Numbered from the stretch's first letter, positions 3,175-34,748 are shown. The stretch: 64,000 nucleotides of DNA from Candidatus Margulisiibacteriota bacterium (GCA_041661965.1 JBAZTH010000001.1:226710-290709); one strand, 5' to 3'. Notes: generated from the sequence alone by a model not told the origin. Numbers and translations are program-made.

Positions 3175-5154
3175 ATGAGAAAGGTGATGGTCGCCGGGTT
3201 TTGCCTGGCCCTCCTATGCGGATGCGCTATGAATAATAAAGCTCTCGATCTTAATAACCTCGACACCTCCGTTAAACCGGGGGCCGATTTTTATCGCTAT
3301 GCCATCGGCAACTGGCAGAAAAACAACCCGATCCCGGCCGAGTACAGCAGTTGGGGGAGCTTTGTCATCCTGGGAGAAGAGAACCTTATAACCCTGCGGG
3401 AGATTATGGAGACGGGCAAAGGACAAGTCGGCGATTTCTACGCCAGCGGGATGGACGAGAAAAAGATCGAAAAGGCGGGGATCAAGCCGCTGGCCGATGA
3501 ACTCGCCCGGATCGAAGCGATCAATGATCTGAAGGGATTAACTCTGGCGGTGGCGCATCTCCACCAGTACAGCGCCGATCCGCTCTTCCATATCTTTGTT
3601 GGTCCCGATTATGCCAATAGCGATCTCAATATTGCCGAATTATACCAAGGAGGACTCAATCTCCCTGACCGGGACTACTACCTCAAAGATGATAAATACT
3701 CGAAAGAAATTCGGGCCAAATACCAGCAGTACGTGACTAAGATGTTTATGTTAATGGGAGCGGTAAAGGCGGAGGCAGAGGCGAAAGCCAAGGTGGTCTT
3801 GAAGATCGAAACCGGTTTGGCGAAGATCTCCCGTGATAAAGTCGCCCTCCGCGATCCCCGGAAAAACTACAACCCGCTCTCGTTAAAGACCCTGGCGAAG
3901 CTCGCTAATAAGTTCGATTGGCCCCTCTATTTTCAGACGATCGGCCTGAAAAAACCGGGGAAGATCAATGTCGGCCAGCCGGAATTTTTTGCCGGGCTCA
4001 ATCAGCTTATGGCGACGGTCACGATTGCCGACTGGCGGACCTATTTAACCTTCACCCTGGTCAACGATAACGCCGAGTTCTTGAGCTCGGCATTTGTTAA
4101 TGAAGAGTTTAACTTTTACGGCCGGACCCTGAACGGCAACAAGGTCCTGATGCCCCGCTGGAAACGGGTGGTGGGGACGGTCAACGCCTATCTCGATCAG
4201 GCGGTTGGCCGCTTGTTTGTGAAAGAGCGGTTTTCTCCCCAGGCTAAGAGCCGGGCGGGAGAGATGGTGCGCAACATCCGGGCCGCTTTTAAGAAACGGC
4301 TGGCGGCTCTCGATTGGATGACCGATAAAACTAAAAAAGAGGCCTTTAAGAAGTTGGCGGCGATGACCTTTAAGATCGGCTATCCGGGGAAATGGCGGGA
4401 ATACAAGTTTAAAGTTGAGCGGGGAGAATACCTGGCCAATGTTTTCCGGGGAAATTATTTCGATTTTCATTACGAGCTGAATAAGGTGGGGAAGAAGGTT
4501 GACCGCAACGAGTGGGGGATGCCGGTCCAGATCGTTAATGCCGGTTACATGCCAACTCGTAACGAGATGCTTTTCCCGGCCGGGATCCTCCAACCCCCGT
4601 TCTTTAACGCCGCGGCCGACGATCCGGTCAATTACGGTGCGATCGGGATGGTGATCGCCCACGAAATGACCCACGGCTTTGACGACCAGGGGAGGAAGTT
4701 TGATAAGCGGGGGAACCTGAAGGATTGGTGGACCAAGCAGGACGAGGTTAATTTTAAGGCCAAGGCGAAGGCGGTTGTCGAGCAGGCCGAAGCTTTTGAA
4801 CAATTCCCCGGAATGCCGCTCAACGGGGAGCTGACTTTAGGTGAGAATATAGCTGACCTTGGCGGGGTGAGCATTTCCCATGATGCCCTCCAGTTTGCTT
4901 TAGGGAAGAAAAAACAACCGCTCCTCGACGGTCTGACCCCGGAACGGCGCTTTTTCTTGTCATATGCCGAGGTCTGGAAGACCAATATGCGCGACGAGCG
5001 GGCCAAGCTTTTAGTGAAGGTCGATCCCCATGCCCCGGCGAAATACCGGGTCAACGGCCCCTTAAGCAATCTCCCAGAATTCTACGCCGCCTTCAATATC
5101 GCCTCGAATGAAGCGATGTTCCGTCCGGAAGCGAAACGGGCCAAGGTTTGGTAG
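3175..5154 (+). CDS. pepO: M13-family zinc metallopeptidase (PepO/neprilysin-like), probably a lipoprotein
   Basis: HEMTHGFD (HExxH), GENIADLGG and ExxxD motifs. The N-terminus has an LLCGC lipobox-like signal. Confidence 0.85.
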   Translation: MRKVMVAGFCLALLCGCAMNNKALDLNNLDTSVKPGADFYRYAIGNWQKNNPIPAEYSSWGSFVILGEENLITLREIMETGKGQVGDFYASGMDEKKIEKAGIKPLADELARIEAINDLKGLTLAVAHLHQYSADPLFHIFVGPDYANSDLNIAELYQGGLNLPDRDYYLKDDKYSKEIRAKYQQYVTKMFMLMGAVKAEAEAKAKVVLKIETGLAKISRDKVALRDPRKNYNPLSLKTLAKLANKFDWPLYFQTIGLKKPGKINVGQPEFFAGLNQLMATVTIADWRTYLTFTLVNDNAEFLSSAFVNEEFNFYGRTLNGNKVLMPRWKRVVGTVNAYLDQAVGRLFVKERFSPQAKSRAGEMVRNIRAAFKKRLAALDWMTDKTKKEAFKKLAAMTFKIGYPGKWREYKFKVERGEYLANVFRGNYFDFHYELNKVGKKVDRNEWGMPVQIVNAGYMPTRNEMLFPAGILQPPFFNAAADDPVNYGAIGMVIAHEMTHGFDDQGRKFDKRGNLKDWWTKQDEVNFKAKAKAVVEQAEAFEQFPGMPLNGELTLGENIADLGGVSISHDALQFALGKKKQPLLDGLTPERRFFLSYAEVWKTNMRDERAKLLVKVDPHAPAKYRVNGPLSNLPEFYAAFNIASNEAMFRPEAKRAKVW

Positions 5155-5155
5155 A

Positions 5156-6859
5156 TCAGCGCCAGGTCATATAGCTGTTGATAATCGTTGAGCTCAAAGA
5201 GTAAATTTGCTCTCGTCTGGTAAGCGCTGCCAAGGTTTTTTGGGTTTCTTCCGGGAATTCTCCTTTGGCCTTGAAAATGTTTTCCATAATAGTGCCGAGC
5301 AGCTCAAAATTGCCGCCAAAGTTGTTTTGGTTGAGACCGGCGGCTTCCGTTACTTTAAAAAAATCTTCCAGCCAGCAAGCAATGATTGCGCCAGCGTCAC
5401 CAAGTTTATCGGCCGGGATCAATTCGGTCGAGTCGAAAATCGCTCCTTCGGGCGACAAATTGTTGCTGGTGTTCGGCCGCTTGAAATGGCCGTCGACTAA
5501 CGGGAATTTGCAGGTCAGACGGCAATCAAGGACCGCCCTGATATTCTTGCCGAGGTTGGCGGCCAGATTTGCCAGATGTTTCTCCCGTCCGGCGTCGAAA
5601 CTCTCTTCGGGGAACGAGTCTCTAATGAAGAGCTGATAACTAGCGGCGTTTTCCAGGAAGGCCAATCTTCTGGTGTCGTTCCCCACCGCCCGGGCAAGAA
5701 CAAATAGGTCGCCGCTGTCGTAATCAGGCAAGAACTTCCGGATGGCCGTTTGGTCGAGCAGTCTGATCCTGGAAAGAGAGATTCCTCCCACCTCGGCTCC
5801 GCTGGCGAGCAGCTGCCGGTCGCGGTCGATCGCTTCGGTATCGGCTTCGATCATCCCGCCGACCGGGTCGGCCGTGGCGGGCGGAGGCTGGTGGAACTGG
5901 TCAAGGAAAAGGCCGAACTTTTCGAATAAATTGGGATAACCGACCATCACCATTTCCTTGCCCCGCCATTCATCCGCCTGATAGAATGGCATCACTGCTT
6001 CGCCGGGCAAGAGCGGGAGTCGGCCGTCTTGCCCCGGCTTGACGGCATGACCGACGTAATTGGCGCCGGCACCTTTAAACTGCAGGCAGCAGCCGGTGTA
6101 AAGCGCGGCGTGGCCGAGCGGAGCAAAATGACGGAGCATCATCCTGGCGAAGGCAGGCCAGCGGAACCGCTCTGAAAAAATCGGCCAAGCAATTTTTTCT
6201 TCGTCAGTTGGAATATTCTGCCAAATGTTTTCTAATTGTTGTTCCAGGCTGGCGAGCGTTGTTGTTGTGTTCTGTCCGGTCTCATTTAAAAATGAGCTTA
6301 TATACAGCTCCAGATCTTTCATCGATTTCGGGATAAAAGGTTCGTCTTCAATCCTGGCAAGAGAAAATTGTTTGCCTAAATCCTTGATGGCGCCGTAGAC
6401 CGGGAAGAAATTGTGATGGGGATCGGACAGGACCCTAGTTCCCCAAACGCAGAAATAAGGGAAAGTTATCTTTTCTCCTTTATTATTTCTGACCGGGGTG
6501 AGGCCCAACGTCTCTAATTCCTGGTCGGATAAACGGCGATTTTTTATGTAGAGGCCGCCGGTCAAAGGGACGATATTCCCTTCCTTATGATCGAGGCGGA
6601 GAGAGAAGTTGGGGAGGGCGGTTAAGGGGTCAGGCTCCCATTTCGCACCGCGGACAAAATAAAAGGCGGTCTCCGCCAGCAGTAGTTTTTGCGGGGCGTA
6701 AGCCAGTCTCGGCCCATCTTTGGTCGAGCAAAAGCCGCCGACGCCGGCTAGCGGGGTGTTTCGCCTCTCTCTAGCGCGCTCTTCGACCTGGTTAGCGGTG
6801 TGTCCCCTGAAGACAGGATGTTCAGCCGCGATGATGCCGGCTGAACTTTTGTTAAACAT
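5156..6859 (-). CDS. Large hypothetical protein of 567 aa with no recognised domain; last gene of the rSAM operon
   Basis: Long intact ORF. The likely start, ATG at 6859 (MFNKSSAGII), overlaps the stop of the upstream 65-aa ORF as ATGTTTAA. The track ORF extends to a TTG at 7045. Confidence 0.5.
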   Translation of the reverse strand: MFNKSSAGIIAAEHPVFRGHTANQVEERARERRNTPLAGVGGFCSTKDGPRLAYAPQKLLLAETAFYFVRGAKWEPDPLTALPNFSLRLDHKEGNIVPLTGGLYIKNRRLSDQELETLGLTPVRNNKGEKITFPYFCVWGTRVLSDPHHNFFPVYGAIKDLGKQFSLARIEDEPFIPKSMKDLELYISSFLNETGQNTTTTLASLEQQLENIWQNIPTDEEKIAWPIFSERFRWPAFARMMLRHFAPLGHAALYTGCCLQFKGAGANYVGHAVKPGQDGRLPLLPGEAVMPFYQADEWRGKEMVMVGYPNLFEKFGLFLDQFHQPPPATADPVGGMIEADTEAIDRDRQLLASGAEVGGISLSRIRLLDQTAIRKFLPDYDSGDLFVLARAVGNDTRRLAFLENAASYQLFIRDSFPEESFDAGREKHLANLAANLGKNIRAVLDCRLTCKFPLVDGHFKRPNTSNNLSPEGAIFDSTELIPADKLGDAGAIIACWLEDFFKVTEAAGLNQNNFGGNFELLGTIMENIFKAKGEFPEETQKTLAALTRREQIYSLSSTIINSYMTWR

Positions 6860-17245: not shown

Positions 17246-17279
17246 TGGAAGCCAGCGACAGTATCGTCGCGGCTTCCAA
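17246..17279. repeat. Hairpin A-family element (GGAAGCC-a-GCGAC-agtatc-GTCGC-g-GCTTCC) in the panD / 17302 divergent intergenic region
   Basis: Same nested two-stem architecture as hairpins at 22358, 24006 and 32944, with compensatory base changes. A TATAAT -10 follows at about 17291. Confidence 0.45.
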
Positions 17280-22345: not shown

Positions 22346-22448
22346 GAAAATTTTACTGGAAACCTGCGGCAATATCGCCGCGGTTTCCAAGTTTTAAAGA
22401 GAAGGAGAGGATAACCGCGACGTTTAGTCGCAGGTTATCCGTCAGCCA
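22346..22448 (+). promoter_or_regulatory. Structured intergenic RNA element inside the rnf operon: hairpin A (22358-22388), AAGGAGAG, hairpin B (22409-22440), then the rnfA ATG
   Basis: Hairpin A is GGAAACC-t-GCGGC-aatatc-GCCGC-GGTTTCC. Hairpin B is GGATAACC-GCGAC-gttta-GTCGC-a-GGTTATCC. The same arrangement with compensatory substitutions precedes trpB2 at 32944-33038. Confidence 0.5.
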
Positions 22449-24005: not shown

Positions 24006-24078
24006 CTAGGAAACCTGCGGCAATATCGCCGCGGTTTCCTAGTTTTATTTTAACCGCCCCGATCGGATCGGGGCGGTT
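24006..24078 (+). terminator. Rho-independent terminator of the rnf operon (hairpin A-family copy plus U-tract), followed by a second perfect 13-bp palindrome
   Basis: CTAGGAAACCTGCGGCAATATCGCCGCGGTTTCCTAG then GTTTTATTTT; then AACCGCCCCGATC-g-GATCGGGGCGGTT. Confidence 0.55.
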
Positions 24079-24125
24079 AAATTGGAAGCCAAAACGATCT
24101 TTCCCTCAAAGTAGTAGAATATTAT

Positions 24126-34466: not shown

Positions 34467-34540
34467 TGGAGCCGAGGGGGATCGAACCCCTGACCTCTAG
34501 AATGCAAATCTAGCGTTCTCCCAGCTGAACTACGGCCCCA
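34467..34540 (-). tRNA. tRNA-Cys (GCA)
   Basis: Reverse complement folds as a cloverleaf: acceptor GGGGCCG/CGGCTCC, D-arm TAGTTCAGCTGGGAGAACG, anticodon stem CTAGA/TCTAG with loop TTTGCAT, T-arm GGGGTTCGATCCCC. CCA is not encoded. Confidence 0.85.
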
Positions 34541-34560
34541 TATTAAAATTAAAAAGATCG

Positions 34561-34682
34561 AACTTTTCGAATTGATCTAAACATTCTCCCAGTCCCGACG
34601 ATCCACCGCAGGTGGATGTCGGGATCCCGATGATTCCATAATTATTAAAAATAATGATCATCGGGACTGAACTACGGCCCCA
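34561..34682 (-). pseudogene. Degenerate second tRNA-Cys copy with two palindromic insertions in the D-loop
   Basis: Reverse complement reads GGGGCCGTAGTTCAG, then [TCCCGATGAT...ATCATCGGGA], then [TCCCGACATCCACC-tgc-GGTGGATcGTCGGGA], then CTGGGAGAA, followed by a degenerated anticodon/T region (..AGTTCGATC). Confidence 0.4.
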
Positions 34683-34748
34683 TTTGAGAATTGATTATAG
34701 CTTATTTTTAGAGTCAGAGGCAAGAATGGTGGCGAATCCAACCATTTA

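What the first reader, a model, noticed from the sequence alone, without database searches (positions are those of the whole stretch)
34467..34690. tRNA-Cys followed by a degenerate copy carrying two TCCCGA...TCGGGA palindromic insertions
The degenerate copy lies 45 nt upstream (in the tRNA's orientation) of the intact tRNA-Cys(GCA). It preserves GGGGCCGTAGTTCAG...CTGGGAGAA (acceptor 5-prime strand and D-arm) but is split by two tandem hairpins of 42 and 32 nt. Both hairpins begin TCCCGA and end TCGGGA. The copy continues into a decayed anticodon/T-arm region (TTTAGATCAATTCGAAAAGTTCGATC). No integrated DNA lies between the copies, so this is not an occupied att site. It could be a duplicated tRNA hit by a tiny palindromic insertion element, a scar of element excision, or a processed leader structure that influences tRNA maturation.
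Basis: seen in the sequence. Interest (0 to 1): 0.5.

Follow-up and report, generated by a model that had tools for sequence, protein, structure and literature searches.

The report
Hairpin relic of tRNA-nested nuclease cassette
A tRNA-Ala gene (not tRNA-Cys) is preceded by a 142-base leftover of a selfish DNA cassette that nests in tRNA genes, made of a partial tRNA copy split by two hairpins, and tracing its relatives shows a small nuclease family of unknown function sitting in the same arrangement in several bacterial phyla.

Summary
Upstream lie tRNA nt 1-15, two hairpins of 42 and 32 nt, tRNA nt 16-24, and a 44-nt spacer. Together these are 142 nt that a sister species lacks at the same promoter-tRNA junction.

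The hairpins are not unique. A strict pattern found 30 metagenome loci, mostly Saganbacteria-like. There the same hairpin pair sits in D-loops, T-loops or anticodon stems of partial tRNA copies beside intact tRNAs. It also sits in a 23S-5S spacer.

In many loci an 80-95 aa GIY-YIG nuclease gene (UPF0213, bacterial Slx1-like) lies between the partial copy and the intact tRNA. All 16 nuclease loci examined, from at least five phylum-level groups, share this architecture. Their partial tRNA copies carry a CCCGAT...ATCGGG hairpin, usually in place of the anticodon arm.

The window's own genome holds a second ORF-less copy at tRNA-Ala(GGC) and an intact nuclease cassette at tRNA-Pro(CGG). I read the window feature as a non-autonomous relic of this cassette family, now a passive pre-tRNA leader. 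The anatomy and associations are shown. The cut-and-repair mechanism is inferred. I found no description of this in the literature.

The parts
34467..34539 (-). Intact tRNA-Ala(UGC), 73 nt, G3:U70, no encoded CCA
   Evidence: ARAGORN; Rfam RF00005 at 67.7 bits; sequence read
34540..34583 (-). 44-nt spacer TGTTTAGATCAATTCGAAAAGTTCGATCTTTTTAATTTTAATAT, with a weak hairpin and a T-run. Homologous to the spacer of the second copy in the same genome (L090).
   Evidence: Alignment to L090 beats all 2000 shuffles. Similarity to the tRNA 3' part is only GTTCGATC (37 of 2000). Not called a terminator.
34584..34592 (-). Copy of tRNA nt 16-24 (CTGGGAGAA)
   Evidence: Direct repeat D8, 100% identical
34593..34624 (-). 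HP2: 32-nt GC-rich mini-hairpin TCCCGACATCCACCTGCGGTGGATCGTCGGGA
   Evidence: The inner stem has compensatory changes relative to L085 and L090 (TCCACC/GGTGGA versus TCCGC/GCGGA).
34625..34666 (-). HP1: 42-nt hairpin TCCCGATGATCATT..AATAATTATGGAATCATCGGGA with a conserved asymmetric AT-rich loop
   Evidence: I5. It is one of 32 aligned distinct family members out of 34 found. In those, 95% of the 13 stem pairs form, with 16 compensatory cells and 0 of 500 shuffles as high.
34667..34681 (-). Copy of tRNA nt 1-15 (GGGGCCGTAGTTCAG). Together with 34540-34666 it makes the 142 nt that are absent from the empty site in L084.
   Evidence: Direct repeat D1; alignment to L084
34694..34723 (-). Sigma-70-like promoter TTGCCT-18-TATAAT. 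It is the native tRNA promoter, with the same sequence and spacing as in L084, where it directly precedes the tRNA.
   Evidence: Promoter scan; L084 sequence

Best explanation
**What it is.** The feature is a non-autonomous, ORF-less member of a family of selfish cassettes that nest in tRNA genes.

**Full form of the cassette.** Read in the tRNA's direction, it contains:
- a partial copy of the resident tRNA, carrying hairpins with TCCCGA/TCGGGA stems;
- a minimal GIY-YIG nuclease gene of 80-95 aa (UPF0213, the bacterial Slx1-like family), whose 3' end runs into the tRNA;
- the intact tRNA itself;
- often a further 5'-truncated tRNA copy.

**What the window has.** Only the hairpin-bearing 5' partial copy and a spacer, 142 nt in all. 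They sit between the native promoter and tRNA-Ala(UGC). The same genome carries a second such module at tRNA-Ala(GGC) and an intact nuclease cassette at tRNA-Pro(CGG).

**Proposed mechanism (inferred, not shown).**
1. The structure-specific nuclease, supplied in trans, cuts one of two targets. One is the hairpins extruded as single-stranded or cruciform DNA. The other is the short palindromes of tRNA genes where the hairpins sit: AG|CT in the D arm and GTTC|RA in the T loop.
2. Recombinational repair from a cassette-bearing template copies the hairpins, and the gene when present.
3. The same repair creates partial tRNA duplications.
4. Selection keeps one intact tRNA.

**Present state in the window.** The relic is most likely passive. 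The tRNA is transcribed through it from the upstream promoter and is released by 5' processing.
For: **Shown: polymorphism and copies**
- Presence/absence at the orthologous site. L084 (flanks about 88% identical) joins the same promoter directly to the tRNA. L085 carries an ORF-bearing version.
- The same module, 90% identical over 216 nt, sits beside a different tRNA-Ala in unrelated flanks (L090). Protein accession series place L090, the window and nuclease locus L120 in the same MAG submissions.

**Shown: the hairpin family**
- A strict junction pattern found 30 metagenome loci, three of them in the complete WOR-1 genome.
- Most sites lie inside partial tRNA copies beside intact tRNAs, at recurrent positions.
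- Compensatory changes maintain the HP1 stem.
- L118 has three hairpin pairs where the orthologous L100 has one.

**Shown: the nuclease link**
- GIY-YIG ORFs are confirmed by Pfam (E 1e-10 to 1e-17). Their profile matches UPF0213 structures 1ZG2 and 1YWL, and weakly Slx1.
- In 16 of 16 distinct nuclease loci the ORF abuts or overlaps an intact tRNA on the same strand. In the 14 tabulated loci the gap ranges from -30 to +15 nt; in four loci the tRNA precedes the ORF.
- Those 16 loci come from Saganbacteria, Nomurabacteria, other Patescibacteria, Dehalococcoidia, Elusimicrobia and an IMG/VR contig.
- In all 16, partial copies of that tRNA flank the ORF, carrying CCGAT...ATCGG-type hairpins.
- Such hairpins are rare in 490 kb of control loci (5 found).

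**Precedent**
- Phage SegB, a GIY-YIG homing endonuclease in the T4/T6 tRNA cluster, cuts within tRNA-gene DNA. It drives recombination-dependent tandem amplification of tRNA segments (PMC2330249; PMC13096335).
Against: - No nuclease gene lies in the 64-kb window. Any action there must be in trans or in the past.
- The window's spacer shows no detectable remnant of an ORF. The ORF-less module may therefore be an independent form rather than a deletion derivative.
- About a third of the hairpin-pair sites are not in tRNA-like DNA. They lie in a 23S-5S spacer or in promoter-proximal intergenic sites. Most hairpin sites also lack a nuclease gene within the fetched DNA.
- The hairpin order HP1 then HP2 follows the direction of transcription in about 12 of 13 asymmetric cases. 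This fits an RNA-level role or single-strand transposition equally well.
- No cleavage specificity is known for any bacterial UPF0213 protein.
- A homing model does not explain why the intact tRNA in the same cassette is not cut.
- The loci were sampled through searches seeded with the hairpin or the nuclease, not through whole-genome censuses.
Confidence: 0.6

Rival explanations
1. The hairpin pair is an independent miniature element, moved in trans by a single-strand (Y1/HUH) transposase. It would be REP/REPIN-like or a palindrome-associated derivative of IS200/IS605. It prefers single-stranded, palindrome-rich, highly transcribed DNA such as tRNA and rRNA operons. The GIY-YIG genes merely share the same safe havens.
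For: - Two subterminal hairpins, no target-site duplication, and a 14-nt terminal inverted repeat (I1).
- A strong orientation bias relative to transcription, and hence probably to replication.
- Sites outside tRNA genes, including the 23S-5S spacer.
- Several HP2 loops are C(GAA)G-type triloops. From my own knowledge, these form very stable DNA mini-hairpins.
Against: - No such transposase was seen in any fetched locus, although this was not searched systematically.
- Copy number is low: one in 64 kb, and three strict-pattern hits in a complete 1.67-Mb genome.
- The same CCCGAT stem travels with the GIY-YIG gene across phyla, in 16 of 16 loci. Coincidence does not explain that.
- The left flanks show no single 4-5-nt target as in IS200/IS605.
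Confidence: 0.2
2. The hairpins work at the RNA level. They would be processing, stabilising or attenuating structures in precursors of stable RNAs, and the window's copy would tune maturation or output of tRNA-Ala.
For: - The only promoter found lies upstream of the relic, so the hairpins must be in the pre-tRNA leader.
- Orientation follows transcription.
- A hairpin pair sits in a 23S-5S spacer.
- The stems are maintained by compensatory change.
- The RNA fold of leader plus tRNA has z = -4.6. The predicted minimum pairs the upstream pseudo-acceptor strand with the tRNA 3' end.
Against: - A sister species has the same promoter and tRNA without the relic, so it is dispensable.
- The hairpins occupy decayed, truncated tRNA copies that cannot mature.
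- Presence/absence and copy number vary between close relatives, as expected for mobile DNA.
- No Rfam family matches.
Confidence: 0.1
3. It is an ordinary local tandem duplication of the tRNA 5' region, or a scar of an integrase-type island at a tRNA att site, that then decayed. The palindromes would have arisen in place.
For: Two direct repeats of the tRNA 5' end lie 142 nt apart (D1). tRNA genes are classical integration sites.
Against: - The same hairpins, with a conserved loop, recur in other tRNA species and other genomes.
- The 5' end of the tRNA is duplicated, not the 3' end that integrases usually target.
- No integrase gene and no intervening element are present.
- The partial copy is 24 of 24 identical to the tRNA while the rest is unrelated. 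That is not uniform decay.
Confidence: 0.04
4. The upstream copy is a functional tRNA gene with intron-like insertions that are removed from the RNA, or is half of a split tRNA.
For: The insertions sit precisely in loops (D-loop, T-loop) and leave the flanking tRNA sequence untouched. Archaeal introns can occupy such positions.
Against: - ARAGORN with introns allowed finds no second tRNA in the window.
- Deleting the hairpins in silico restores no complete tRNA in the window or in any of 31 related loci. The only new call is a truncated tRNA-Lys-like sequence in L118.
- The window copy lacks everything after nt 24.
- The helix at the insertion is continuous, with no bulge-helix-bulge.
- The organism is a bacterium.
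Confidence: 0.01

Closest known systems
SegB, the free-standing GIY-YIG homing endonuclease in the tRNA gene cluster of phages T4/T6 (PMC2330249; PMC13096335)
   Same: A GIY-YIG nuclease gene embedded among tRNA genes. Cleavage within tRNA-gene DNA. Recombination-dependent tandem amplification that yields partial tRNA and nuclease copies, helped by microhomology between the tRNA 5' end and the nuclease 3' end.
   Different: SegB is a phage protein, which to my knowledge is over 200 aa and has a DNA-binding part. Here the proteins are 80-95 aa, catalytic domain only, of the Slx1-like UPF0213 branch. They are chromosomal in uncultivated bacteria and are accompanied by a conserved hairpin. No activity has been shown.
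REP/REPIN elements with RAYT transposases, and palindrome-associated elements derived from IS200/IS605
   Same: Short non-coding units built from one or two hairpins, with no target-site duplication, a strand and orientation bias, and a non-autonomous form moved in trans.
   Different: Those are moved by Y1 tyrosine transposases and are usually high-copy and intergenic. Here copy number is low, sites are concentrated in tRNA-like DNA, and the linked gene is a GIY-YIG nuclease. No Y1 transposase was seen, but it was not searched for systematically.
Double-hairpin elements and repetitive hairpin elements of fungal and sponge mitochondria (PMC2800124), and GC-rich palindromes flanking tRNA genes in Neurospora mitochondria (from my own knowledge)
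   Same: Small mobile two-hairpin units that insert into spacers and structural RNA genes, some with a tRNA-gene association.
   Different: Those are organellar, have no sequence relationship to these hairpins, and have no associated nuclease gene of this family.
Rickettsia palindromic elements and other bacterial MITEs (from my own knowledge)
   Same: Palindromic insertions that land inside genes, RNA genes included, without destroying the flanking sequence.
   Different: MITEs have target-site duplications and derive from DDE transposons. RPEs are tolerated inside functional genes. Here only non-functional tRNA copies carry the insertions.
Partial tRNA duplications at integrase att sites of genomic islands
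   Same: A partial tRNA copy beside an intact tRNA.
   Different: Those duplicate the 3' end, bracket kilobases of island DNA and need a tyrosine or serine integrase. Here the 5' end is duplicated, 44 nt away, and there is no integrase.
Archaeal non-canonical tRNA introns and split tRNAs (PMC3293823), and RNase III-excised intervening sequences of 23S rRNA (from my own knowledge)
   Same: Stem-loop insertions at loop positions of a structural RNA gene.
   Different: Those leave a functional RNA after processing. Here the carrier copies are truncated or decayed, and removing the insert restores no tRNA.

Membership tests
tRNA-Cys(GCA) | Anticodon GCA at positions 34-36 of the cloverleaf | tested here: not met
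   The anticodon is TGC on the minus strand (ARAGORN). GCA is the plus-strand reading.
tRNA-Ala | Anticodon NGC, a G3:U70 pair, and a cloverleaf scoring above threshold | tested here: met
   ARAGORN calls tRNA-Ala(tgc). Rfam scores 67.7 bits against a gathering score of 29. G3 and T70 are read directly.
Intron-containing or split tRNA gene | Removing the insert restores a complete cloverleaf; for archaeal introns, a bulge-helix-bulge at the junctions | tested here: not met
   ARAGORN -i and in-silico removal give no second tRNA in the window and no complete one in 31 related loci. The fold shows a continuous helix at the junction.
Integrase att-site duplication at a tRNA gene | Duplicated tRNA 3' segment, element DNA between the repeats, and an integrase gene | tested here: not met
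   The duplicated segment is nt 1-24. Only 44 nt plus the hairpins lie between the copies. The neighbours are trpB-like and kinase genes.
MITE | Terminal inverted repeats | tested here: met
   Arms of 14 nt, 93% complementary, spanning the 74-nt insert (I1)
MITE | Target-site duplication flanking the insert | tested here: not met
   The flanks are CAG|..|CTG, the two halves of a palindrome and not a direct repeat.
REP/REPIN or IS200/IS605-derived palindromic element | A cognate Y1 (HUH) transposase in the genome, with the hairpins as its ends | not tested
   No whole-genome scan was possible and none was noticed in the fetched loci. Left flanks end in YAG, TTG, ATG or TTC rather than one fixed 4-5-mer.
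Free-standing GIY-YIG endonuclease cassette in tRNA genes (the architecture defined here; SegB-like in concept) | GIY-YIG ORF abutting an intact tRNA | tested here: not met
   tblastn finds no GIY-YIG in the 64-kb window. The feature is met in L085, L092, L093, L097, L105, L109, L117, L120, L123 and L127-L131 and in L133-L134.
Free-standing GIY-YIG endonuclease cassette in tRNA genes (the architecture defined here) | Partial copy of the resident tRNA carrying TCCCGA/CCCGAT-stem hairpins next to the intact tRNA | tested here: met
   Window 34584-34681. It is homologous to the hairpin-bearing part of the ORF-carrying L085 cassette (88% over 99 nt).
Homing endonuclease (functional definition) | Site-specific cleavage of the cassette-free allele and gene conversion | not testable with these tools
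   Only presence/absence polymorphism is seen (L084 versus the window versus L085).
UPF0213 / bacterial Slx1-like GIY-YIG (the associated protein, encoded outside the window) | Profile similarity to the solved family members; catalytic domain only | tested here: met
   1ZG2 at E 7e-14, 1YWL at E 7e-9, Slx1 at E about 0.004-0.01. Pfam finds only PF01541, plus a weaker overlapping PF10544 hit, over 80-95 aa.

The most novel reading that the evidence does not exclude
Minimal UPF0213 (bacterial Slx1-like) GIY-YIG genes, together with tRNA pseudo-copies whose anticodon arm is replaced by a same-sized CCCGAT...ATCGGG hairpin, form a previously undescribed mobile element. It nests in tRNA genes and crosses phylum boundaries. 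A structure-specific nuclease would use hairpin DNA as its cis-acting site and would generate partial tRNA duplications during spread. The window's double hairpin would be its non-autonomous form.
Probability: 0.4. Interest if true: 0.8.

Novelty: new variant of a known kind. Interest (0 to 1): 0.6.

Why it matters
By itself the window feature is a dispensable relic in front of a tRNA gene. Its relatives matter more.

- **A function for an orphan family.** They give a concrete genomic context for a very large protein family, the stand-alone Slx1-like GIY-YIG proteins. One search returned more than 6,800 hits. Solved structures exist (1ZG2, 1YWL), but the bacterial function has stayed open since the family was described (PMC1564403).
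- **A testable hypothesis.** These are selfish nucleases nested in tRNA genes, and their cis partner is a conserved hairpin.
- **Practical consequences.** The architecture would explain arrays of pseudo-tRNAs and assembly breaks at tRNA genes in genomes of uncultivated bacteria. It also affects tRNA gene annotation and counts in such MAGs.
- **A cellular parallel.** It would be a cellular counterpart to SegB-driven amplification of tRNA genes in phages.

Tried and rejected
- **Hairpins elsewhere in the window.** The exact pattern and a 1-mismatch stem search found nothing convincing besides the two at the locus. One unrelated-context CCCGAT palindrome lies at 24048-24082.
- **Rfam.** Gathering thresholds on the window and E-value thresholds on five related loci matched only tRNAs. 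No family matches the hairpins or the pseudo-copies.
- **Cyanobacterial HIP1 idea.** GCGATCGC is only mildly enriched (10 observed, 3.3 expected). The organism is a Margulisiibacteriota/Saganbacteria relative.
- **Intron or split-tRNA reading.** Rejected by in-silico removal of the hairpins.
- **Deletion-derivative test.** The window's spacer has no significant similarity to the ORF-bearing L085 or L092 regions. The origin of the ORF-less form is therefore unresolved.
- **68-nt tandem-duplication model.** Comparing the spacer with the 44 nt upstream of the copy was not significant (146 of 2000 shuffles).
- **Viral collection.** The Saganbacteria-type junction pattern gave 0 hits. The arm-type pattern gave 2 loci, one of them a genuine cassette (L131). 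A protein-seeded scan returned nothing.
- **PADLOC and PHROGs.** Only weak generic GIY-YIG or homing-endonuclease matches, and no defence system.
- **Literature.** Nine searches found no description of this architecture. The library lacks most subscription journals, so absence is not proof.
- **Not done.** A scan for Y1 transposases, and whole-genome censuses.

Full report
**1. What is in the window**

The minus strand carries one tRNA at 34467-34539. ARAGORN calls it tRNA-Ala with anticodon TGC, and Rfam scores it at 67.7 bits. The sequence shows G3 and T70.

Reading the minus strand upstream of the tRNA gives, in order:
- a sigma-70-like promoter, TTGCCT-18-TATAAT, at 34723-34694;
- 12 nt of leader;
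- GGGGCCGTAGTTCAG, which is tRNA nt 1-15 (34681-34667);
- a 42-nt hairpin, HP1 (34666-34625);
- a 32-nt hairpin, HP2 (34624-34593);
- CTGGGAGAA, which is nt 16-24 (34592-34584);
- a 44-nt spacer (34583-34540);
- the intact tRNA.

The 24 copied bases are identical to the tRNA. The hairpins sit exactly in the centre of the D-loop palindrome CAG|CTG.

As single-stranded DNA the insert folds with z = -5.2. Two independent assemblies from other sequencing runs contain the promoter-copy-HP1 junction at 100% identity. They break inside the repeats, as expected.

Only GTTCGATC is shared with the tRNA 3' part (37 of 2000 shuffles).

**2. Organism and orthologous sites**

The window is part of a 162.8-kb metagenome contig. 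The nearest genome is the complete 'candidate division WOR-1' (Saganbacteria) MAG, with a TrpB-like protein 88% identical. NCBI names the identical kinase 'Candidatus Margulisiibacteriota'.

The neighbouring kinase has only two close homologues, and their loci are informative.
- **L084** has flanks about 88% identical. It has the same promoter and leader joined directly to the intact tRNA, so it is an empty site. The window therefore has exactly 142 extra bases: 15 + 74 + 9 + 44.
- **L085** has a much larger structure on the other strand. It reads: tRNA nt 1-15; homologous HP1 and HP2; a decayed remainder of the tRNA; a 95-aa ORF; the intact tRNA-Ala(UGC); a 73-aa ORF; then a 3' tRNA fragment whose T-loop (after GTTC) holds another hairpin pair.

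HP2 differs between the loci by compensatory changes (TCCACC/GGTGGA versus TCCGC/GCGGA).

**3. The hairpins are a dispersed family tied to tRNA genes**

Inside the 64-kb window the motif does not recur. A metagenome scan with the HP1-HP2 junction (ATTATGGAA N1-6 TCGGGATCCCGA) returned 30 loci. Three of them lie in the complete WOR-1 genome.

Annotated displays show the pair in these places:
- between nt 15 and 16 of Ala and Pro copies (YAG|CT);
- at TAG|CT of a Lys copy;
- after GTTC in T-loops;
- in or next to anticodon stems of Val, Thr and Arg copies.

In nearly every such case the carrier is a partial or decayed copy lying beside an intact tRNA of the same kind.

Of 23 distinct pair sites, 11 have a ..G|C.. 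junction (mostly YAG|CT) and 5 have GTTC|RA. These are the centres of short palindromes that tRNA genes conserve.

L118 carries three pairs in a pseudo-tRNA-Lys where the orthologous L100 carries one. The unit therefore keeps inserting.

About a third of the sites are elsewhere. One is a 23S-5S spacer, confirmed by Rfam. Others are promoter-proximal intergenic positions.

34 distinct HP1 units were found and 32 were aligned. They share an invariant stem base, an invariant CAT/ATG inner helix and a conserved asymmetric loop (..ATTATGGAAT). Three stem pairs show compensatory changes in 16 cells, and 0 of 500 shuffles reach this.

In about 12 of 13 asymmetric cases HP1 precedes HP2 in the direction of transcription.

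Deleting the hairpins in silico restores no complete tRNA in the window or in 31 related loci; the only new call is a truncated tRNA-Lys-like sequence in L118. ARAGORN with introns allowed sees nothing more. These are not introns.

**4. The link to a nuclease**

The ORFs between partial copy and intact tRNA are GIY-YIG catalytic domains of 80-95 aa (Pfam E 1e-10 to 1e-17). A profile of five of them matches the solved 'UPF0213' proteins 1ZG2 and 1YWL, and weakly Slx1. This is the bacterial Slx1-like branch, whose function is open (PMC1564403).

The family is very large: more than 6,800 hits, many on very short contigs.

I looked up members from other phyla, beside those already fetched:
- Nomurabacteria (L123);
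- another Patescibacteria member (L129);
- Dehalococcoidia (L127, and probably L130);
- Elusimicrobia (L128);
- an IMG/VR contig (L131);
- two of unknown affiliation (L133, L134).

In 16 of 16 distinct loci the ORF abuts or overlaps an intact tRNA on the same strand. Further partial copies of that tRNA flank it.

In most of these copies the 17-nt anticodon arm is replaced by a same-sized hairpin, (T)CCCGAT-N3-4-ATCGGG(A). L133 also has a long TCCCGA hairpin in the T-loop.

Such hairpins are rare in 490 kb of control loci from many phyla (5 found).

Saganbacterial Ala-type enzymes are closer to the Patescibacteria-type enzymes at Ala, Asp and Val genes (51-60% identity). They are more distant from Saganbacterial Pro-type enzymes (42-48%).

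No GIY-YIG gene lies in the window.

**5. The window's own genome**

NCBI protein accession series place three loci in the same two MAG submissions:
- the window's kinase;
- the GIY-YIG protein P0131 (locus L120, on the same 613,994-bp contig);
- the genes flanking L090.

L120 is a full cassette at tRNA-Pro(CGG).

L090 carries the same ORF-less module as the window, 90% identical over 216 nt with a homologous spacer. It sits in unrelated flanks, in front of tRNA-Ala(GGC).

So one genome holds two non-autonomous copies and at least one nuclease that could act in trans.

**6. Interpretation**

Shown:
- the anatomy;
- the presence/absence polymorphism;
- the paralogous copy;
- selection on the hairpin stems;
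- the tRNA-position preference;
- the two-way association between hairpins and nuclease genes.

Inferred: an Slx1-like, structure-specific nuclease cuts extruded hairpins or the palindromic tRNA sites. Recombinational repair then spreads the cassette and leaves partial tRNA duplications, and selection preserves one working tRNA.

The phage enzyme SegB is a precedent for GIY-YIG cleavage in tRNA-gene DNA that leads to recombination-dependent tandem amplification (PMC2330249; PMC13096335).

In the window the relic now lies between the only recognisable promoter and the tRNA. It must therefore be transcribed as a 5' leader and removed. The empty site in L084 shows that it is dispensable.

**7. 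Rivals and limits**

- A single-strand transposase could move the hairpins independently of the nuclease. I could not scan whole genomes for one.
- An RNA-level role is not excluded. Orientation bias and the rRNA-spacer site fit it.
- The homing model does not explain why the intact tRNA escapes cutting.
- It also does not explain why the anticodon-arm substitute keeps the arm's size.
- All loci were reached by seeded searches, so frequencies are not genome-wide estimates.
- Nine literature searches found no description of this architecture. The library is incomplete.

**8. Verdict**

- The window feature itself is an ordinary-looking relic.
- It belongs to what appears to be an undescribed variant of tRNA-associated selfish nuclease cassettes found in several phyla.

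Noticed in passing
window 24048-24082: A perfect 14-bp-stem palindrome, TTAACCGCCCCGAT-CGG-ATCGGGGCGGTTAA, lies in an intergenic region. It has the same CCCGAT core as the cassette hairpins but is not next to any tRNA.
   Followed up: partly
window 22359-22389, 24010-24040 and variant 17246-17278: A second palindromic repeat family, GGAAACCTGCGGCAATATCGCCGCGGTTTCC, is followed by T-runs and looks terminator-like. It is also present in L085 and L090.
   Followed up: partly
window 34467-34748 versus L004, L084, L085: The tRNA-Ala gene points away from trpB's direction in the window and L084, but is co-oriented with trpB in L085 and in the complete WOR-1 genome (L004). L004 also lacks the kinase gene. 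After the kinase stop, the window and L084 have a hairpin AAATGGTG..CCACCATT that contains a CCACCA string, while L085 has an inverted tRNA 3' end (TGGTGGAGCC) at that spot. This may be the footprint of an inversion.
   Followed up: no
L090 3057-3132 versus window 34467-34539: tRNA-Ala(GGC) and tRNA-Ala(UGC) of the same organism are identical outside the 17-nt anticodon arm, apart from an encoded CCA end in L090. This points to concerted evolution or arm exchange between isoacceptor genes.
   Followed up: no
L085 about 5150-5375 (minus strand): A 73-aa ORF with a good ribosome-binding site lies just downstream of the intact tRNA inside the cassette. It has no Pfam, NCBIfam or PHROGs match.
   Followed up: partly
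L085, L092, L093, L109, L117, L120, L128, L129, L131, L133: The nuclease ORF's stop codon lies 10-30 nt inside the intact tRNA. RNase P processing of the tRNA 5' end would therefore cut the mRNA before its stop codon, which could act as a built-in brake on nuclease expression.
   Followed up: no
L098 480-553: A hairpin pair of the same family sits in the 23S-5S rRNA spacer, in the transcribed orientation.
   Followed up: yes
L118 209-489 versus L100 830-930: A pseudo-tRNA-Lys downstream of the intact tRNA-Lys(CUU) carries three hairpin pairs plus a GC-rich T-loop hairpin in L118. The orthologous L100 has one pair, which shows stepwise accumulation.
   Followed up: partly
window, whole 64 kb: The octamer GCGATCGC (the cyanobacterial HIP1 palindrome) occurs 10 times against 3.3 expected (1 of 100 shuffles). 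This is a mild enrichment in a sister lineage of Cyanobacteria.
   Followed up: no
tRNA-Pro(CGG) genes in L109, L117, L120: TCGGGA, the 3' arm end of every hairpin, is also nt 33-38 of the tRNA-Pro(CGG) anticodon loop (TTCGGGA). Pro genes are among the commonest hosts. This may be coincidence or a clue to the origin of the stem.
   Followed up: no
L002, L003, L088, L089 and many hits: Short-read assemblies break at these repeats: contigs end at window 34496 and 34628. Many family members sit on contigs of 0.5-3 kb. tRNA and nuclease counts in such MAGs are therefore likely to be underestimates.
   Followed up: partly
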